Source of the DNA: a phage
DNA: 42,515 nucleotides
Strand: one strand, 5' to 3'
Sequence record: PP754824.1
Positions within the stretch are counted from its first letter, which is position 1, and each line of letters begins with the position of its first letter. Shown in pieces: positions 33,690 through 38,599 of the stretch. A program made the position numbers and the translations under genes. Under the pieces are notes generated by a model, which was given only the letters and a program-made list of their open reading frames with translations, ran no database searches and was not told where the DNA came from.

Positions 33690-33734
33690 ATTATAGCAAG
33701 CCAAATCCTTTTGGCTTTACCATTTTGTGCTATT
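33690..33734 (-). promoter_or_regulatory. conserved promoter box variant (AATAGCACAAAATGGTAA), 22-nt spacer, -10 TATAAT
   Basis: Spacer hairpin AGCCAAAAGGATTTGGCT; RBS AAGGAG; drives the HNH gene. Confidence 0.55.
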
Positions 33735-36717
33735 AGTTGAAACCTCTCAAATAAGCAAATGCTCTGCCGCCCTGCTGGAAAGACTGAGCAATCTCTTCTG
33801 CTACAATTGCCTTAACGCCATTTTGCAGCGCCTTGGCCTGTTCCGGGTCGCTTCCAATCCCACTATTAACGTTAACGGTTATTCCGCTAACATTAACATC
33901 TGCACCACCAGAAACCAAGCCGCCATTTGCATAGCCCGAAGGCCCGCCTACAACACCGCCATTTGCGTAACCTCTCATCAATGCGTAAAGGTTTTTAACA
34001 CCAATCCTGCTTGTTGCTTCTTTTGTGAATACAAACTCCCCCTTATGTACAGTGCCTGCTGGTTGATATTTTCCACCGTCTCCAGTGTAACCGCCGCTAG
34101 CAAAGCCACCGCCAATCGCAGATGCGATAGACCCAATCGCGCCACCAGTACCACCAAAGCTACTTAAGCTAGACTCGATAGCCTTAACAATAAGAAGCTG
34201 AGTTGCAATTCTTGCAATCTGCTTGAGTATGTTTACAGTAAACTCCCTGAAGTTTGTTTCTCCAGTGGTTACAAGGTCAGTAATCTGGTCAGTAATGCCT
34301 TCAAATACCTTAGTGGTTAAACTTCCGGCAATTGAGAAAGCATCTGTAGCGCTTTCAGCCCAGTTAGCAAAGGATTGATTCACGCCAGCAAGCCAGTTTT
34401 CACGTAGCGCATCCTCTTGAGCATAGAAATTACGCCTTGCTTCGAGTAAAGCCTGAAAATCAGTGTCATCTACAGAGCCACCTTTGTTTAACTGATTGGA
34501 CTGAAGCGACTGAATCTCTCTGGCTCTCTGCTTCTCCCTGTCAGATAAATTAGCAGCAAGCGAAACATTATTTGCTTCATTCTTAATCTGCACAGTCTTC
34601 TTAAGGTTGTCATCAAGTAACTTGTTTGACCTCTCCTGAAGCACAATCTGGTCACCAAGCTCAGCCTTCTGTTTAGCCTGTTCAAGAATGATATTCTTCT
34701 GCGCAAGTAACTTGGCTTGTGATTTTGTAAGCGTACCATCCGCTTGCCTTTGCTCAAGTATTGCAAACTTCGCTTCTTCCTGGAATAACTGCTTGCGTTC
34801 GTTGCTTATTACATCACTTATTTTCTTGTGCTCTTGTAAAACCTTCAGCTGAGCCTGAAGAGCAAGAACACCAGATTCATAAGATAAAGTTAAATCCATT
34901 TCTTCTTTTACTGCCTTATTCCTCTCGCTCCTCGATTTCTTTATTGCATCAAGCTCGTCTGCTAGCGCTTTCTTCCTTGCTCCGAACTCCTTATCTGTTG
35001 ATGCATTATTCCCGCTCAGGTTAGTGTTATTGTTGCTCTCGACATAACCAAGTTCACCCTTCCTGATTCTCGCGTCTCGCTCAGCTATGCTTTTAGCTAA
35101 CTCAATGTTTTGCTTCTTGGCAGCATCGACAATCTTTTGCTGCTCAGCGATTGCTTCATTGCCTAAATCGCCAAGTCCCGGGATTGACTGAAGCGTCTTG
35201 GTTGCAGCGATAGCAAATTCACCAAGAAGAATGTCGCCTGAGTTTATGAACGACCTTATCTGCTCAATCGTCCCAGCAACAACGTCAGTTATTAAGTTAA
35301 GAGCACCAAGTGTCCTTTTGCCGATATCATCCCAAATATTACTTACAAACTTCCTGAAGCTATTCCATGCACTTTCTAGCGGATTGAGGCTTAGTGCAAC
35401 ATCTTCTAGCCTGTTTTCCATAACGTTAGCAAATAACTCAGTAGCTGCTGTTACAGCCTCAGTCTCTCCCGCTGTCTTCCTTAAGTTCTCTATGTGTTTT
35501 AACTGCCCACTTTGAAGGAAGTTAAATTGCTTATCAAGCTCAGCAAGGCCTTTAACAGGGTCTTTTGTAATTTGGTCAAAGTACCCGAGAATGGTCTTTG
35601 AATCGGTTGATGTTACTGCCGCCCACTGCGCTGTTGCCTTAGTTATCTTGTCTATCTGCGTAAGAGTTAGGTTTCCGTTTGCCACAAGGCTATTGGCTAT
35701 TTCCTGAATAAGTCCGCGAGTAGCTAGTGTTGATCTCTCAATTCCATCAACAACCTGATTTATCTGCGCTGTAGACGTGATAGTTGAGTTGCCAACCAAC
35801 GTTATCGTAGATGCTAGTCCTCGAGCATTCTTATCGGCCTGATAAGCCGCAACACCCAAAGCGCCAAGAGCCAGGCCTAGAGTCCCAACAACTGCTGTTA
35901 ATGGGTTAATGGCTGCCAGTGCAAACCTTGCTGTATTTCCAATACCGCCAAAACTATCCTTAATCTGCCCACCCTGTTGGATTGCAACAAGCCAGACTGG
36001 CATGCCGCTAGCAAGGGAAGTTCCGATATCTGTAATCTGAGCGGGTAGCTGGCGAATCGCTTGCTTGTACTGACCGGCGCTTAAACCTGACTTAAGAAAA
36101 GCGGAACTCTGCTTCTGCAACTGAACAGCAGATGCCTCGGCAGCCTTACCAATCCTGTCGATAATAGGCGCAGCTTGGTCACTAACCCCTAGCTGAGCAG
36201 CCTTAAGCTGAAGCAGTTCAGTCCTTGTAAGGCTTGCTGCATTCGCCTCGTTCTCAAGAGATTGAATGAACTTTTGCGCCGCTGCTGTTGCCTTTTCTTT
36301 GTCTATTGATGCCTGGAGTGCAGCCCGACCTTCCTCGCTAAGAGCAGCTTTAGACCTGTTGAGCTTATTGATTTGAGTTTCAATAACAGAGCCAAGCCTG
36401 AAGAATTCTTCATCAGGAACTATCCCAGATTCAAATGCTTTGTCTAATTCAGTTGCTGCCTTCTGCAACTTCTGGAATTTAGCGGCAGTTGGGTCTATGG
36501 CTTTCTGAAGTGATGCGAAAGATTTGCGCTGTTCCTCAAGCTGCCTTGCAGTGTCCCTTGCTTGAGTCTTGGCTACAAGCTCGGCGTTGATGAAGCTATT
36601 GATTCCCGTTGCAGCTTGCTCGTTTGCTTGCCTGAATTTCTGTAATGATTGCGTACCCTTATCGACCTGAGCGACGTCGACGGCTAGCGTGATACCAGCA
36701 ATTTCGTTAGTTGCCAT
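33733..36717 (-). CDS. tail tape measure protein (994 aa)
   Basis: Long Ala/Gln/Lys-rich alpha-helical protein with Gly-rich C-terminal segment, downstream of the G/G-T chaperone pair. Confidence 0.9.
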   Translation of the reverse strand: MATNEIAGITLAVDVAQVDKGTQSLQKFRQANEQAATGINSFINAELVAKTQARDTARQLEEQRKSFASLQKAIDPTAAKFQKLQKAATELDKAFESGIVPDEEFFRLGSVIETQINKLNRSKAALSEEGRAALQASIDKEKATAAAQKFIQSLENEANAASLTRTELLQLKAAQLGVSDQAAPIIDRIGKAAEASAVQLQKQSSAFLKSGLSAGQYKQAIRQLPAQITDIGTSLASGMPVWLVAIQQGGQIKDSFGGIGNTARFALAAINPLTAVVGTLGLALGALGVAAYQADKNARGLASTITLVGNSTITSTAQINQVVDGIERSTLATRGLIQEIANSLVANGNLTLTQIDKITKATAQWAAVTSTDSKTILGYFDQITKDPVKGLAELDKQFNFLQSGQLKHIENLRKTAGETEAVTAATELFANVMENRLEDVALSLNPLESAWNSFRKFVSNIWDDIGKRTLGALNLITDVVAGTIEQIRSFINSGDILLGEFAIAATKTLQSIPGLGDLGNEAIAEQQKIVDAAKKQNIELAKSIAERDARIRKGELGYVESNNNTNLSGNNASTDKEFGARKKALADELDAIKKSRSERNKAVKEEMDLTLSYESGVLALQAQLKVLQEHKKISDVISNERKQLFQEEAKFAILEQRQADGTLTKSQAKLLAQKNIILEQAKQKAELGDQIVLQERSNKLLDDNLKKTVQIKNEANNVSLAANLSDREKQRAREIQSLQSNQLNKGGSVDDTDFQALLEARRNFYAQEDALRENWLAGVNQSFANWAESATDAFSIAGSLTTKVFEGITDQITDLVTTGETNFREFTVNILKQIARIATQLLIVKAIESSLSSFGGTGGAIGSIASAIGGGFASGGYTGDGGKYQPAGTVHKGEFVFTKEATSRIGVKNLYALMRGYANGGVVGGPSGYANGGLVSGGADVNVSGITVNVNSGIGSDPEQAKALQNGVKAIVAEEIAQSFQQGGRAFAYLRGFN

Positions 36718-36721
36718 ATTG

Positions 36722-36750
36722 TCTCCATAATAAAAAAGCCACCCCGAAGG
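36722..36750 (-). terminator. terminator-like hairpin upstream of the tape measure gene
   Basis: Imperfect hairpin AGCCATCCTTCGGGGTGGCT followed by TTTTTT on the minus strand. Confidence 0.4.
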
Positions 36751-36754
36751 ATGG

Positions 36755-37081
36755 CTATTTCTTGGCGTTCATCATATCTAAGGCTTTAGCCTCAAGTATT
36801 CTGATATCGTTAAGTACCATTTCTTCATCATCTATTTTATAGACTTTGAACAAGAATGGAAGGCAATTATAATCAAGGCCTGTGGCACCGCAAGCACCTA
36901 CTCGCCATTGTGTCGACATAGCACAGTACACATCCCAGCTTTGCATCATTGTTTCATCGAAGTGTAACTCTTCAGGCTCCTCACCTTCATAATCGGAACG
37001 TTTCATTCCGATAGCTTCGAGTTCGGCATCCGTTGGCGGTGACTGGTATTGTAAGTATACTGCGCGTTTTAGTTTTTTACT
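36755..37081 (-). CDS. tail assembly chaperone G-T, -1 frame extension (fusion made by programmed frameshift from 37069..37383)
   Basis: Reading the -1 frame from the A_AAA_AAC slippery heptamer runs without a stop into ORF 36755..37006. Confidence 0.65.
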   Translation of the reverse strand, partial: SKKLKRAVYLQYQSPPTDAELEAIGMKRSDYEGEEPEELHFDETMMQSWDVYCAMSTQWRVGACGATGLDYNCLPFLFKVYKIDDEEMVLNDIRILEAKALDMMNAKK

Positions 37082-37383
37082 CGCTGCCCTGCAAGTGCTT
37101 TCATGTAGCTATCCATTAGCGATGGAACTGCACCAGGGAAAAGGTTTGCAAACTCATCGACGTTCTCATCGTTAAATGGTTCTTCTAAATCCCAGTCAGA
37201 GCAGATTTCGCTAATCAATTCCTTAGTGCTGAAGTTTTCACGATTAAGAATCTCCTGTAACTCAGATGATTTCTTGTGCTTAACTGTTAAGACTACTTCT
37301 GCGTCCTCTCCATTCGCAAGCTGAAACTTAACTGGAAGTTTAAAGTCAGGAAGCGCCTTAAGTGAAAGTTTGAATTTTGCCAT
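37069..37383 (-). CDS. tail assembly chaperone G-like (104 aa)
   Basis: Position upstream of tape measure; acidic; ends just after the slippery heptamer. Confidence 0.7.
   Translation of the reverse strand: MAKFKLSLKALPDFKLPVKFQLANGEDAEVVLTVKHKKSSELQEILNRENFSTKELISEICSDWDLEEPFNDENVDEFANLFPGAVPSLMDSYMKALAGQRVKN
37072..37078 (-). other. programmed -1 ribosomal frameshift slippery site A_AAA_AAC
   Basis: Minus-strand codons GTA AAA AAC TAA; plus strand shows GTTTTTT. Confidence 0.65.
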
Positions 37384-37418
37384 CTCGTTATCTCCTTTGT
37401 TTATGTTGAATGATTATA

Positions 37419-37667
37419 TTACTTTGATTCGTTTTTTACAATGTTGTGAGCAACTTCGGTGCACACTTCGCGACCATAGTGCAGAATCTGGTTTGTCTTA
37501 TCGCCAGCTACTTTTTCACAATGCGAATATGCACTATTAAATTCATGTTCATACTTTATTGCATCAGAGTTTGCGGTTGCGCCACCAGTTGGGTTGACAA
37601 TCTGAATTGCCAGGTAGAAAGCACCAAGAGCAGCAGTAAGTTTGATGATATTTTTAACGTTGTTCAT
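37419..37667 (-). CDS. small secreted protein with signal peptide (82 aa)
   Basis: N-terminal signal-like segment IIKLTAALGAFYLAIQIV; mature part has three Cys; inserted between major tail and G. Confidence 0.5.
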   Translation of the reverse strand: MNNVKNIIKLTAALGAFYLAIQIVNPTGGATANSDAIKYEHEFNSAYSHCEKVAGDKTNQILHYGREVCTEVAHNIVKNESK

Positions 37668-37685
37668 TTTGTTTTCTCTCTCGTT

Positions 37686-37826
37686 TTAGCGATTACGCAG
37701 CGCTATCACAATTAAAGCAAGCAAAGCAGATACGAAGTAAGTGCCTATGGCTGCACCTAATGATACCCAAAAGGTTAGACCTGTAGCATAATAGAAAAAA
37801 GCGGTCAGCATACCAATTAAAATCAT
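37686..37826 (-). CDS. small membrane protein (46 aa from the internal ATG)
   Basis: MILIGMLTAFFYYATGLTFWVSLGAAIGTYFVSALLALIVIAL; RBS GAGGT; the ORF-track GTG start at 37886 would overlap the -10. Confidence 0.45.
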   Translation of the reverse strand: MILIGMLTAFFYYATGLTFWVSLGAAIGTYFVSALLALIVIALRNR

Positions 37827-37865
37827 TTTGCTTACCTCTATAATCCATCTCGTTTCGATAAAGTA

Positions 37866-37909
37866 ATAATAGCAAATCCCTGCCACACGTCTTTAACAAA
37901 AAGTGCTAT
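37866..37909 (-). promoter_or_regulatory. conserved promoter box variant (ATAGCACTTTTTGTTAA), 22-nt spacer, -10 TATTAT
   Basis: Immediately after the major-tail terminator; leader TTATCGAAACGAGATGG. Confidence 0.55.
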
Positions 37910-37912
37910 CAA

Positions 37913-37940
37913 TAAAAAACCCTCCGAAGAGGGTTAATTT
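37913..37940 (-). terminator. rho-independent terminator after the major tail gene
   Basis: AACCCTCTTCGGAGGGTT followed by TTTTTT on the minus strand. Confidence 0.7.
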
Positions 37941-38599
37941 TATACTAGCTCAGAAGCCACAGAACTCAGCCTACCACGGATGGATACCGCGATGGATACC
38001 GTTTCGATTTCGTTAACACCAATGCTCGGGGTGTCGTTGAAAGAGATAGTGCCAGACTGAAGTCGCATCTCACTAGCGCGAGGCACGAACAGACGGATAG
38101 CAACAACCTGACCAGACTCATCATAGTTACGCAGAATCGGATATACCGGGTTGGTGTATTCGTGCGCGAACGTGTAGGTGTTAGTTACCGCAGACTTATA
38201 GGTTGGAATCTTTTGCTCGCGGTCATCAGATAAACACTGGAAGTTAACGAACTGCTGTTCGCCGCCGTCAGTGGATACATCCTGAACACAAGGAACTTCA
38301 AACCAGCTAAGAATCTTAACTACTTCACCAGTTAAACCGGCTGGAAACTTAGTGTTGTTGGAGGTATCAATACCTTCAACAGTTACGTCCGAACCAGATA
38401 CCGCGGTGACACGAACTTGCTTATCAGCCAGAAGTGTTGAAGCTGAGCTGGTGAACAGCAGGTAATCCCCGCGCGCAATACCTGTGGCGTCGGACAAAGT
38501 TAAAACAGGAGCAACAGCATTGGTAATTGCTGTTACGTCGATAGTATTACCCCTAGTGCCCTCTACGAAGACCTGGGTGCCATTGCTGAGATGGGCCAT
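37940..38599 (-). CDS. major tail (tube) protein (219 aa)
   Basis: Position upstream of G/G-T and downstream of the head-tail joining genes; followed by a strong terminator. Confidence 0.6.
   Translation of the reverse strand: MAHLSNGTQVFVEGTRGNTIDVTAITNAVAPVLTLSDATGIARGDYLLFTSSASTLLADKQVRVTAVSGSDVTVEGIDTSNNTKFPAGLTGEVVKILSWFEVPCVQDVSTDGGEQQFVNFQCLSDDREQKIPTYKSAVTNTYTFAHEYTNPVYPILRNYDESGQVVAIRLFVPRASEMRLQSGTISFNDTPSIGVNEIETVSIAVSIRGRLSSVASELV

What the first reader, a model, noticed from the sequence alone, without database searches (positions are those of the whole stretch)
36755..37383. Programmed -1 frameshift joining the G-like and T-like tail chaperone ORFs
The upstream ORF ends ...CGA GTA AAA AAC TAA. 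A -1 slip on A_AAA_AAC gives a frame that is open through the 60-nt gap and continues into ORF 36755..37006. This is the conserved G/G-T mechanism of long-tailed phages and explains the apparently separate 83-aa ORF.
Basis: partly seen in the sequence, partly recalled or inferred. Interest (0 to 1): 0.5.

Follow-up and report, generated by a model that had tools for sequence, protein, structure and literature searches.

The report
Tail chaperone frameshift in T1-like phage

Summary
On the minus strand the 104-codon ORF 37383..37069 ends GTA AAA AAC TAA. The heptamer A_AAA_AAC (37078..37072) is in register. The -1 frame is open from 37108 to the stop at 36757..36755, so a 209-aa fusion is possible.

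The window is an Escherichia phage TR2-like genome (Drexlerviridae, Braunvirinae). The upstream ORF is PF08748 (T1 gp40-like tail assembly chaperone) and the downstream part is PF08809 (DUF1799). Both lie between the tail tube gene and the tape measure gene.

- In 107 related loci, T is in the -1 frame in 104.
- 71 of them carry A_AAA_AAC directly followed by a stop. The codon before it changes amino acid but always ends in A.
- The peptide just after the slip (LKRAVYL) is nearly invariant.
- There is no conserved start codon or Shine-Dalgarno sequence for T.

The TLS (tfmS) and Skenny records already annotate this frameshift product, so the finding is already known and of low interest.

Two side notes. 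The window lacks the downstream hairpin that T1, TLS and other relatives have. No protein evidence exists for this phage.

The parts
37069..37383 (-). G-like tail assembly chaperone ORF (104 aa, 11.8 kDa), the product of standard translation
   Evidence: ORF list and translation. Pfam PF08748 Phage_TAC_4, E 4.2e-31, 108 bits against a cutoff of 21.1. Annotated 'tail assembly chaperone' in TR2.
37392..37397 (-). Shine-Dalgarno sequence AAGGAG, 8 nt before the G start codon; it serves both G and GT
   Evidence: Read directly from the sequence.
37072..37078 (-). Slippery heptamer A_AAA_AAC in X_XXY_YYZ register (codons 102-104 are GTA AAA AAC)
   Evidence: It is the only in-register heptamer within the 12-codon overlap of the two frames. 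It is conserved with an adjacent stop in 71 of 107 related loci.
37069..37071 (-). 0-frame stop codon TAA immediately 3' of the heptamer (ends G; possible pause element)
   Evidence: A stop directly follows the heptamer in every relative that carries A_AAA_AAC. The pause role is an inference.
36755..37072 (-). T-like segment read in the -1 frame after the slip (105 codons plus the TAG stop). Together with 37383..37072 it gives the 209-aa GT fusion.
   Evidence: no stop. Pfam PF08809 DUF1799, E 6.7e-14. The fusion matches phrog_17368 at positions 1-211 of 213, E 7e-88.
37007..37068 (-). The apparent 62-nt 'intergenic gap', in fact coding in the -1 frame (KRAVYLQYQSPPTDAELEAIG)
   Evidence: The peptide is conserved across the family. 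Column entropy by codon position in the -1 frame is 0.80/0.56/1.51, so the third position is the variable one.
36755..37006 (-). 83-aa ORF as called by ORF finders and GenBank ('TfmS' in TR2); it is the C-terminal part of GT, not an independent gene
   Evidence: There is no Shine-Dalgarno sequence before the ATG (CTATCGGAATG). The first in-frame ATG lies at +21 to +150 nt in different relatives, and several records annotate no gene there at all.
36737..36756 (-). Terminator-like hairpin plus T-run overlapping the GT stop, just before the tape measure gene
   Evidence: Terminators are annotated at the same place in T1, Skenny and CEB_EC3a.
37413..37441 (-). Promoter-like site (TTGTAA-17-TATAAT) just upstream of G
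   Evidence: consensus match only. Promoters are annotated at the equivalent place in CEB_EC3a and Rogue1.
37940..38599 (-). Tail tube (major tail) protein gene, upstream neighbour
   Evidence: PF08813, E 7.7e-67; phrog_584.
33733..36717 (-). Tape measure protein gene, downstream neighbour
   Evidence: PF06791 and PF09718; phrog_24.

Best explanation
This is a programmed -1 ribosomal frameshift that makes two tail assembly chaperones from one translation start in a T1-like siphophage (Escherichia phage TR2-like, Drexlerviridae).

Most ribosomes that start at ATG 37383 stop at TAA 37071..37069 and release the 104-aa G-like chaperone. A minority slip back one base on A_AAA_AAC (37078..37072), with tRNA-Lys and tRNA-Asn re-pairing on AAA AAA. 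They then read CTA AAA CGC... and continue for 105 more codons to TAG 36757..36755. This gives a 209-aa fusion (...GQRVKN-LKRAVYL...) that carries a DUF1799 'T' domain.

By analogy with lambda gpG/gpGT, the shared G part would coat the tape measure protein, and the T domain of the rare long form would recruit the tail tube protein. The frameshift frequency would therefore fix the G:GT ratio.

Shown here: the sequence anatomy, the domain families, the gene context and the evolutionary conservation. Inferred: that slipping really occurs in this phage, its efficiency, the exact tRNA events, and the binding partners.

No downstream RNA structure is predicted in this phage. The heptamer, and perhaps the adjacent stop codon, would act alone, as in lambda.
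For: - Anatomy: the heptamer is in register, a stop is adjacent, and the -1 frame is open for 105 codons.
- Context: the genes sit between tube and tape measure, and the domains are PF08748 and PF08809. The fusion matches one PHROG family, built from already fused proteins, over its full length.
- Frame and slip site in relatives: in 107 related loci from GenBank and IMG/VR, T is in the -1 frame in 104. Of these, 71 have A_AAA_AAC plus a stop, and the others have A_AAA_G, A_AAG_G or G_GGA_AAC at the same place.
- Nucleotide-level selection: the codon before the heptamer is GTA, GCA, GAA, CAA or ACA, which are five different amino acids, all ending in A.
- Slip position: in the loci resembling Aeromonas phage pAEv1818 the -1 frame opens only 7 nt before the stop, which pins the slip to the heptamer.
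- Translation of the 'gap': the residues right after the slip (LKRAVYL) are nearly invariant although they lie upstream of any start codon. Third-position variability follows the -1 frame.
- No independent start: T has no Shine-Dalgarno sequence, while G and the tape measure gene have AAGGAG and GGAG.
- Prior annotation and literature: TLS tfmS and Skenny are annotated as joined CDS. The mechanism is noted for T1-like Skenny (PMC6763657). [quoted passage not shown] The lambda mechanism is reviewed in PMC5009743.
Against: - There is no protein-level evidence for this phage, and none for any family member came up in the few paper searches run here.
- A_AAA_AAC is reported as much less shift-prone in E. 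coli than A_AAA_AAG (PMC5009743).
- No stimulatory structure is predicted downstream in the window: z = -0.49 and MFE -6.5 kcal/mol for the first 70 nt. Many relatives have a strong hairpin 6-7 nt after the heptamer.
- The motif alone is not statistically rare.
- The public records of TR2, TR3, Rao1 and CY1 annotate two separate genes.
Confidence: 0.9

Rival explanations
1. The frameshift is real, but it works through slippage of a single P-site tRNA-Lys on A_AAA rather than tandem slippage of two tRNAs. The A site would be empty or would hold a slowly decoded codon. The junction would then read ...VKK-LKR... instead of ...VKN-LKR...
For: Webervirus relatives (GCA AAA GTY TAA) and Rogunavirus relatives (GCA AAG GTC TAA) keep the whole arrangement with only A_AAA or A_AAG, where the second tRNA cannot re-pair. 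A_AAG is known to be shifty in E. coli (PMC5009743).
Against: The full heptamer with AAC is kept in 71 of 107 loci, down to 28% protein identity and never as AAT. This suggests selection on the second codon too.
Confidence: 0.15
2. The 83-aa ORF is translated on its own from ATG 37006, by independent initiation or by re-initiation after the G stop. The two products are separate, as the GenBank records show them.
For: An ATG exists at 37006, and GenBank records of TR2, TR1, ES and C119 annotate a separate CDS.
Against: - There is no Shine-Dalgarno sequence (CTATCGGAATG).
- The ATG is not conserved: the first in-frame ATG lies at +21 to +150 nt in relatives. Haarsle, SLUR29 and PWKp17 have no annotated gene in that 350-nt stretch.
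- The 22 codons upstream of the ATG are highly conserved as protein in the -1 frame.
Confidence: 0.04
3. The fusion arises by transcriptional slippage: RNA polymerase adds one extra A in the A-run, and a fraction of mRNAs then carry G and T in one frame.
For: One inserted A gives the same downstream frame. Two database relatives differ by exactly one A in this run: L061 has A8 and an in-frame fusion, and L058 has A5.
Against: The run is only six A in the window. From general knowledge, that is shorter than the runs of about nine usually needed for efficient slippage in bacteria. Relatives with A4, A3 or GGGAAAC keep the same two-frame layout, which only ribosomal slippage explains.
Confidence: 0.03
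4. There is no recoding. The T region is a decaying remnant and only G is made.
For: None beyond the absence of direct protein data.
Against: A 105-codon frame is kept open in more than 100 loci. The DUF1799 domain is conserved and substitution follows codon periodicity.
Confidence: 0.01

Closest known systems
Phage TLS tfmA/tfmS/tfmB and Klebsiella phage Skenny gp38/gp39 (Drexlerviridae), annotated frameshifted tail assembly chaperones
   Same: The proteins are homologous: G 54% and T 70% identical to TLS, about 40% and 50% to Skenny. They have the same position between tube and tape measure, the same -1 frame relation, and the slip site at the last codons of G. TLS has the identical GTA AAA AAC TAA. 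Both records carry a joined CDS for the fusion.
   Different: TLS has a strong hairpin 6-7 nt after the heptamer, which the window lacks. Skenny has GCA AAA GTT TAA instead of the full heptamer. The window lineage has an extra small gene or two between the tube gene and G.
Bacteriophage lambda gpG/gpGT (Levin et al. 1993; Xu et al. 2004, 2013, 2014)
   Same: It has the same logic and gene position. A low-level -1 slip on a heptamer near the end of the chaperone gene adds a second domain. No downstream structure is needed, and the ratio of the two products is set by the slip frequency (PMC5009743).
   Different: The sequence families differ: PF08748 and PF08809 here, with no hit to lambda's G or T families at E <= 0.01. 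The heptamer differs: A_AAA_AAC here against G_GGA_AAG in lambda. Here the stop codon directly abuts the heptamer.
Acinetobacter phage vB_AbaS_Loki gp12/gp13
   Same: [quoted passage not shown]
   Different: The phage and host are unrelated. Homology of the proteins to the window's was not tested here.

Membership tests
G/GT-type tail assembly chaperone pair expressed by -1 programmed frameshift (Xu, Hendrix & Duda 2004 criteria) | Two ORFs located between the major tail (tube) gene and the tape measure gene | tested here: met
   Tube 38599..37940, G 37383..37069, T 37072..36755, tape measure 36717..33733. Two small extra ORFs lie between the tube gene and G.
G/GT-type tail assembly chaperone pair expressed by -1 programmed frameshift (Xu, Hendrix & Duda 2004 criteria) | The second ORF is in the -1 frame, overlaps the end of the first, and lacks its own translation start signals | tested here: met
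   The -1 frame is open from 37108, a 37-nt overlap. There is no Shine-Dalgarno sequence before ATG 37006. The start codon is not conserved in relatives.
G/GT-type tail assembly chaperone pair expressed by -1 programmed frameshift (Xu, Hendrix & Duda 2004 criteria) | A slippery X_XXY_YYZ sequence, in register, inside the overlap | tested here: met
   A_AAA_AAC at 37078..37072 is the only in-register heptamer in the overlap.
G/GT-type tail assembly chaperone pair expressed by -1 programmed frameshift (Xu, Hendrix & Duda 2004 criteria) | The frame arrangement and slip site are conserved among diverged relatives | tested here: met
   T is in the -1 frame in 104 of 107 loci. A_AAA_AAC plus a stop is present in 71. 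A slippery A_AAR or G_GGA_AAC sits at the same place in 33 more of those 104 loci.
G/GT-type tail assembly chaperone pair expressed by -1 programmed frameshift (Xu, Hendrix & Duda 2004 criteria) | Both the short and the long product are made, at a low fixed ratio, and both are needed for tail assembly | not testable with these tools
   This needs protein detection and genetics. No data for this family came up in the few paper searches run.
G/GT-type tail assembly chaperone pair expressed by -1 programmed frameshift (Xu, Hendrix & Duda 2004 criteria) | The G part binds the tape measure protein and the T part binds the tube protein | not testable with these tools
   Inferred from lambda only (PMC5009743).
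Pfam PF08748 Phage_TAC_4 (T1 gp40-like tail assembly chaperone) | Score above the Pfam gathering threshold over the full domain | tested here: met
   108.2 bits against 21.1; residues 1-103 on profile positions 1-123 of 124.
Pfam PF08809 DUF1799 (T1 gp39 / TLS TfmB-like) | Score above the Pfam gathering threshold | tested here: met
   52.3 bits against 26; residues 126-205 of the fusion on profile positions 2-80 of 80.
Lambda gpG / gpT sequence families themselves | Detectable sequence match to lambda's own G and T Pfam families | tested here: not met
   Only PF08748 and PF08809 were reported at E <= 0.01. The relation to lambda G/T is by position and mechanism, not by detectable sequence.
Tail assembly chaperone 'spiral' fold (Pell et al. 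2013) | The predicted or solved structure of the G part adopts the TAC fold | tested here: inconclusive
   The single-sequence AlphaFold2 model has mean pLDDT 59.9, too low to search with. There is no PDB relative by sequence.
Canonical -1 frameshift cassette with a 3' stimulatory RNA structure | A stable stem-loop or pseudoknot 5-9 nt downstream of the heptamer | tested here: not met
   In the window, z = -0.49 for 112 nt and MFE -6.5 kcal/mol for 70 nt. The hairpin seen in T1, TLS and Henu7 is broken in the window, and only 64.7% of cells pair across the panel. This feature is not required for G/GT-type sites.

The most novel reading that the evidence does not exclude
Within one protein family the same slip site comes with a strong hairpin 6-7 nt downstream (T1, TLS, Henu7, haarsle, LF82-19) or without any predicted structure (this window, CEB_EC3a, C119, Sd1). 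It also comes with either a full A_AAA_AAC heptamer or only A_AAA/A_AAG. If all of these deliver the same G:GT ratio, then in the window lineage the stop codon directly abutting the heptamer, or some unrecognised element, would be doing the work of the hairpin. That would make this family a natural series for studying how -1 frameshift efficiency is tuned in bacteria.
Probability: 0.25. Interest if true: 0.3.

Novelty: already known. Interest (0 to 1): 0.1.

Why it matters
The main value is for annotation. The GenBank records of TR2, TR3, Rao1, CY1 and many other Drexlerviridae list either two separate small genes or an empty 350-nt stretch. The real products are most likely a 104-aa chaperone and a 209-aa frameshift fusion. 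The label 'TfmS' on the 83-aa ORF is itself inherited from the TLS fusion protein. Annotating this correctly matters for proteomics, for engineering tails of therapeutic T1-like phages, and for studies of defence systems that sense tail assembly chaperones (PMC13581612). It adds nothing new to the biology of frameshifting.

Tried and rejected
- Downstream stimulatory RNA structure in the window: folding 112 nt gave z = -0.49. The hairpin found in relatives does not form in the window, so it was rejected for this phage.
- Upstream Shine-Dalgarno-like stimulator, as in dnaX: AGGG lies 8 nt before the heptamer, but it is the Ala-Gly codons GCN GGN and its third positions vary freely in relatives. 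It was not pursued.
The single-sequence model of G was too poor to use (pLDDT 59.9), so no fold search was run.
- PDB sequence search and NCBIfam gave no hits.
- The paper search for 'TfmS' returned only unrelated chemistry and medicine papers.
- Independent initiation, transcriptional slippage and a pseudogene were considered and rejected, for the reasons given under the rival explanations.
- The first locus search with a single protein found only 8 close relatives. The alignment-based search was the useful one.

Full report
**What is in the sequence.**
All genes in this part of the window run on the minus strand. ORF 37383..37069 (104 aa) starts 8 nt after an AAGGAG Shine-Dalgarno sequence and ends ...CAG CGA GTA AAA AAC TAA. 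The heptamer A_AAA_AAC occupies 37078..37072 in the X_XXY_YYZ register, and the 0-frame stop follows it directly. The -1 frame is bounded upstream by a TAG at 37111..37109. It stays open from 37108 to the TAG at 36757..36755.

A one-base backward slip on the heptamer therefore gives MAKF...GQRVKN-LKRAVYLQYQSPPTDAELEAIGMKRSDYE...NAKK. This is 209 aa and 23.9 kDa, against 11.8 kDa for the short form. The 83-aa ORF 37006..36755 that ORF finders report is the tail end of this frame.

**What the genes are.**
- The window is at least 99.9% identical over 36600..37700 to Escherichia phages TR2, TR3, Rao1 and CY1. TR2 is classified in Drexlerviridae, Braunvirinae, Christensenvirus.
- The upstream ORF is Pfam PF08748, the T1 gp40-like tail assembly chaperone (E 4e-31).
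- The -1 segment is PF08809, DUF1799 (E 7e-14).
- The gene before them is the tail tube protein (PF08813), and the gene after them is the tape measure protein (PF06791 and PF09718).
- The conceptual fusion matches PHROG 17368 over positions 1-211 of 213 (E 7e-88). That family must have been built from proteins already annotated as fusions.

**Is it more than a chance motif?**
The motif alone is weak. AAAAAACTAA occurs once in the window, with 0.26 expected, and 24 of 100 shuffles contain at least one copy. The overlap of the two frames is only 12 codons, so a random in-register heptamer there has a probability of a few per cent by my own estimate.

The comparative evidence is what makes the case. 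A tblastn search of the fusion found 1142 phage records, and in 906 of them a single place covers at least 80% of the query; every such record listed is in two pieces, that is, two frames. I examined 107 loci that have both parts: 24 GenBank regions and 88 IMG/VR regions.

- T is in the -1 frame relative to G in 104 of the 107.
- 71 carry A_AAA_AAC immediately followed by TAA or TGA, at G-protein identities from 100% down to 28%.
- The codon before the heptamer is GTA, GCA, GAA, CAA or ACA. These are five different amino acids that always end in A, so selection acts on the nucleotide and not on the residue.
- In the loci resembling Aeromonas phage pAEv1818, the -1 frame opens only 7 nt before the stop, so the slip can occur nowhere else.
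- The remaining loci have GCA AAA GTY/GCC TAA (Webervirus, 30 loci), GCA AAG GTC TAA (Rogunavirus, 2 loci) or CGG GGA AAC TGA (a Ralstonia phage). All are shift-prone sequences at the same position.

**Evidence that the 'gap' is translated.**
- The residues right after the slip, LKRAVYL, are almost invariant across the panel. They lie upstream of any possible start codon.
- The first in-frame ATG of the T frame is at +21, +27, +66, +123, +144 or +150 nt in different phages, and none has a Shine-Dalgarno sequence.
- The records of haarsle, SLUR29 and PWKp17 annotate nothing in this roughly 350-nt stretch.
- Across 26 diverse sequences, mean column entropy after the slip site is 0.80, 0.56 and 1.51 for codon positions 1, 2 and 3 of the -1 frame. 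That is the signature of purifying selection on a protein read in that frame.

**Mechanism.**
The best-supported reading is a lambda G/GT-type programmed -1 ribosomal frameshift. One start codon serves both products. Most ribosomes terminate and make G. A minority slip on A_AAA_AAC and add the T domain.

By analogy with lambda, the G part binds the tape measure protein and the T domain recruits the tube protein. The slip frequency then sets the ratio of the two products, which is 30:1 in lambda, and neither protein ends up in the virion (PMC5009743). These functional steps are inferred and not shown here. A_AAA_AAC is reported to be much less shifty in E. coli than A_AAA_AAG (same review), which would suit a low-level event.

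I found no stimulatory structure in the window. The 112 nt after the heptamer fold no better than shuffles (z = -0.49). Many relatives are different: T1, TLS, Henu7, haarsle, SLUR29 and LF82-19 have a strong hairpin (GGGCGGUUU..CUG/CAG..AACCGCCC, region MFE -18 to -25 kcal/mol) starting 6-7 nt after the heptamer, with some compensatory changes. It is not family-wide, since only 64.7% of cells pair, and it is broken in the window, CEB_EC3a, C119 and Sd1. In the window the heptamer would therefore act alone, perhaps helped by the abutting stop codon. That last point is speculation.

**Rivals.**
- Independent initiation at ATG 37006 is contradicted by the missing Shine-Dalgarno sequence, the non-conserved ATG and the conserved upstream coding.
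- Transcriptional slippage would give the same frame, but the run is only six A. Relatives with A4, A3 or GGGAAAC keep the same layout.
- Single-tRNA slippage on A_AAA is a genuine sub-variant. It must operate in Webervirus and Rogunavirus, and it would give ...VKK-LKR... instead of ...VKN-LKR... Only a junction peptide can decide between them.

**Comparison with what is known.**
The frameshift is already annotated in homologues. The TLS record has tfmA (short), tfmS (a joined CDS, the shifted fusion) and tfmB, with the identical GTA AAA AAC TAA. The Skenny record has a joined CDS named 'tail assembly chaperone frameshift product', and its genome announcement cites the lambda analogy (PMC6763657). 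[quoted passage not shown]

The window's proteins are not in lambda's own G and T sequence families. 'G-like' and 'T-like' therefore describe position and mechanism. What is missing is only the annotation in the TR2-group records, where the T ORF is even labelled 'TfmS', the TLS name for the fusion.

**Verdict.**
The finding is already known and of low interest (0.1). Confidence that a GT fusion is made by -1 frameshifting at this heptamer is about 0.9. The residual doubt comes from the lack of any protein data for this phage family in the sources I could search. A structure-based test of the chaperone fold could not be completed.

Noticed in passing
L002, L004, L005, L014/L023 (T1), L024 (TLS) and L018, about 6-45 nt after the heptamer; equivalent window position 37065..37027: Many Tempevirinae and Tunavirinae relatives have a strong hairpin (GGGCGGUUU..CUG / CAG..AACCGCCC) starting 6-7 nt after A_AAA_AAC, which is the classical spacing for a frameshift stimulator. 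LF82-19 and Webervirus show partly compensatory changes. The window, CEB_EC3a, C119 and Sd1 lack it.
   Followed up: partly
L061 1505-1516; L058 1509-1517: Two IMG/VR relatives differ by one A in the slippery run. L061 has A8 instead of A7, which puts G and T in one frame as a natural in-frame fusion. L058 has A5 instead of A6, which puts T in the +1 frame. Whether these are sequencing errors at a homopolymer or real variants is unknown.
   Followed up: partly
L006, L008, L063-L090 (Webervirus); L010, L011 (Rogunavirus); L016 (Ralstonia phage): The slip site is not uniform in the family. Webervirus has GCA AAA GTY TAA and Rogunavirus has GCA AAG GTC TAA. Neither is a full X_XXY_YYZ heptamer, which implies single-tRNA-Lys slippage. 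A Ralstonia phage has G_GGA_AAC TGA.
   Followed up: partly
window 37419..37667 (-) and 37686..37886 (-): Two small ORFs (82 aa, phrog_22925, unknown function; and 66 aa with a GTG start) sit between the tail tube gene and the chaperone gene. This slot is empty in T1, TLS and Skenny. TR1 holds a different 381-nt ORF there, so it looks like a variable insertion slot.
   Followed up: no
window 37431..37437 (-), near the end of the 82-aa ORF: The 82-aa ORF ends ...ATT GTA AAA AAC GAA TCA AAG TAA. This is the same in-register GTA AAA AAC as in the chaperone gene, but the -1 frame runs only 5 codons there, so it is probably a coincidence.
   Followed up: no
window 37918..37935 (-), 36737..36756 (-), 37413..37441 (-): Terminator-like hairpins lie directly after the tube gene and directly after the GT stop, before the tape measure gene. 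A promoter-like site lies just before G. Terminators or promoters are annotated at equivalent places in T1, Skenny, CEB_EC3a and Rogue1, which suggests the chaperone cistron is transcriptionally set apart.
   Followed up: partly
GenBank OP251154 (TR2), OR466728 (ES), and RefSeq records of T1, TLS, C119, Rogue1 and CS01: Product names in public records are unreliable here. The tail tube gene is called 'major capsid protein' in TR2. The 82-aa ORF is called 'exonuclease' in ES. Both chaperone ORFs are called 'tail length tape measure protein' in several RefSeq records.
   Followed up: no
L022 (MT836437.1, unverified metagenomic scaffold) 900-1270: This distant relative has CTG GGA AAC TCC TAA (G_GGA_AAC in register). 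The conserved linker peptide is in the -1 frame, but the TQW core of the T domain is back in the G frame. This is probably an indel error in a low-quality scaffold.
   Followed up: no
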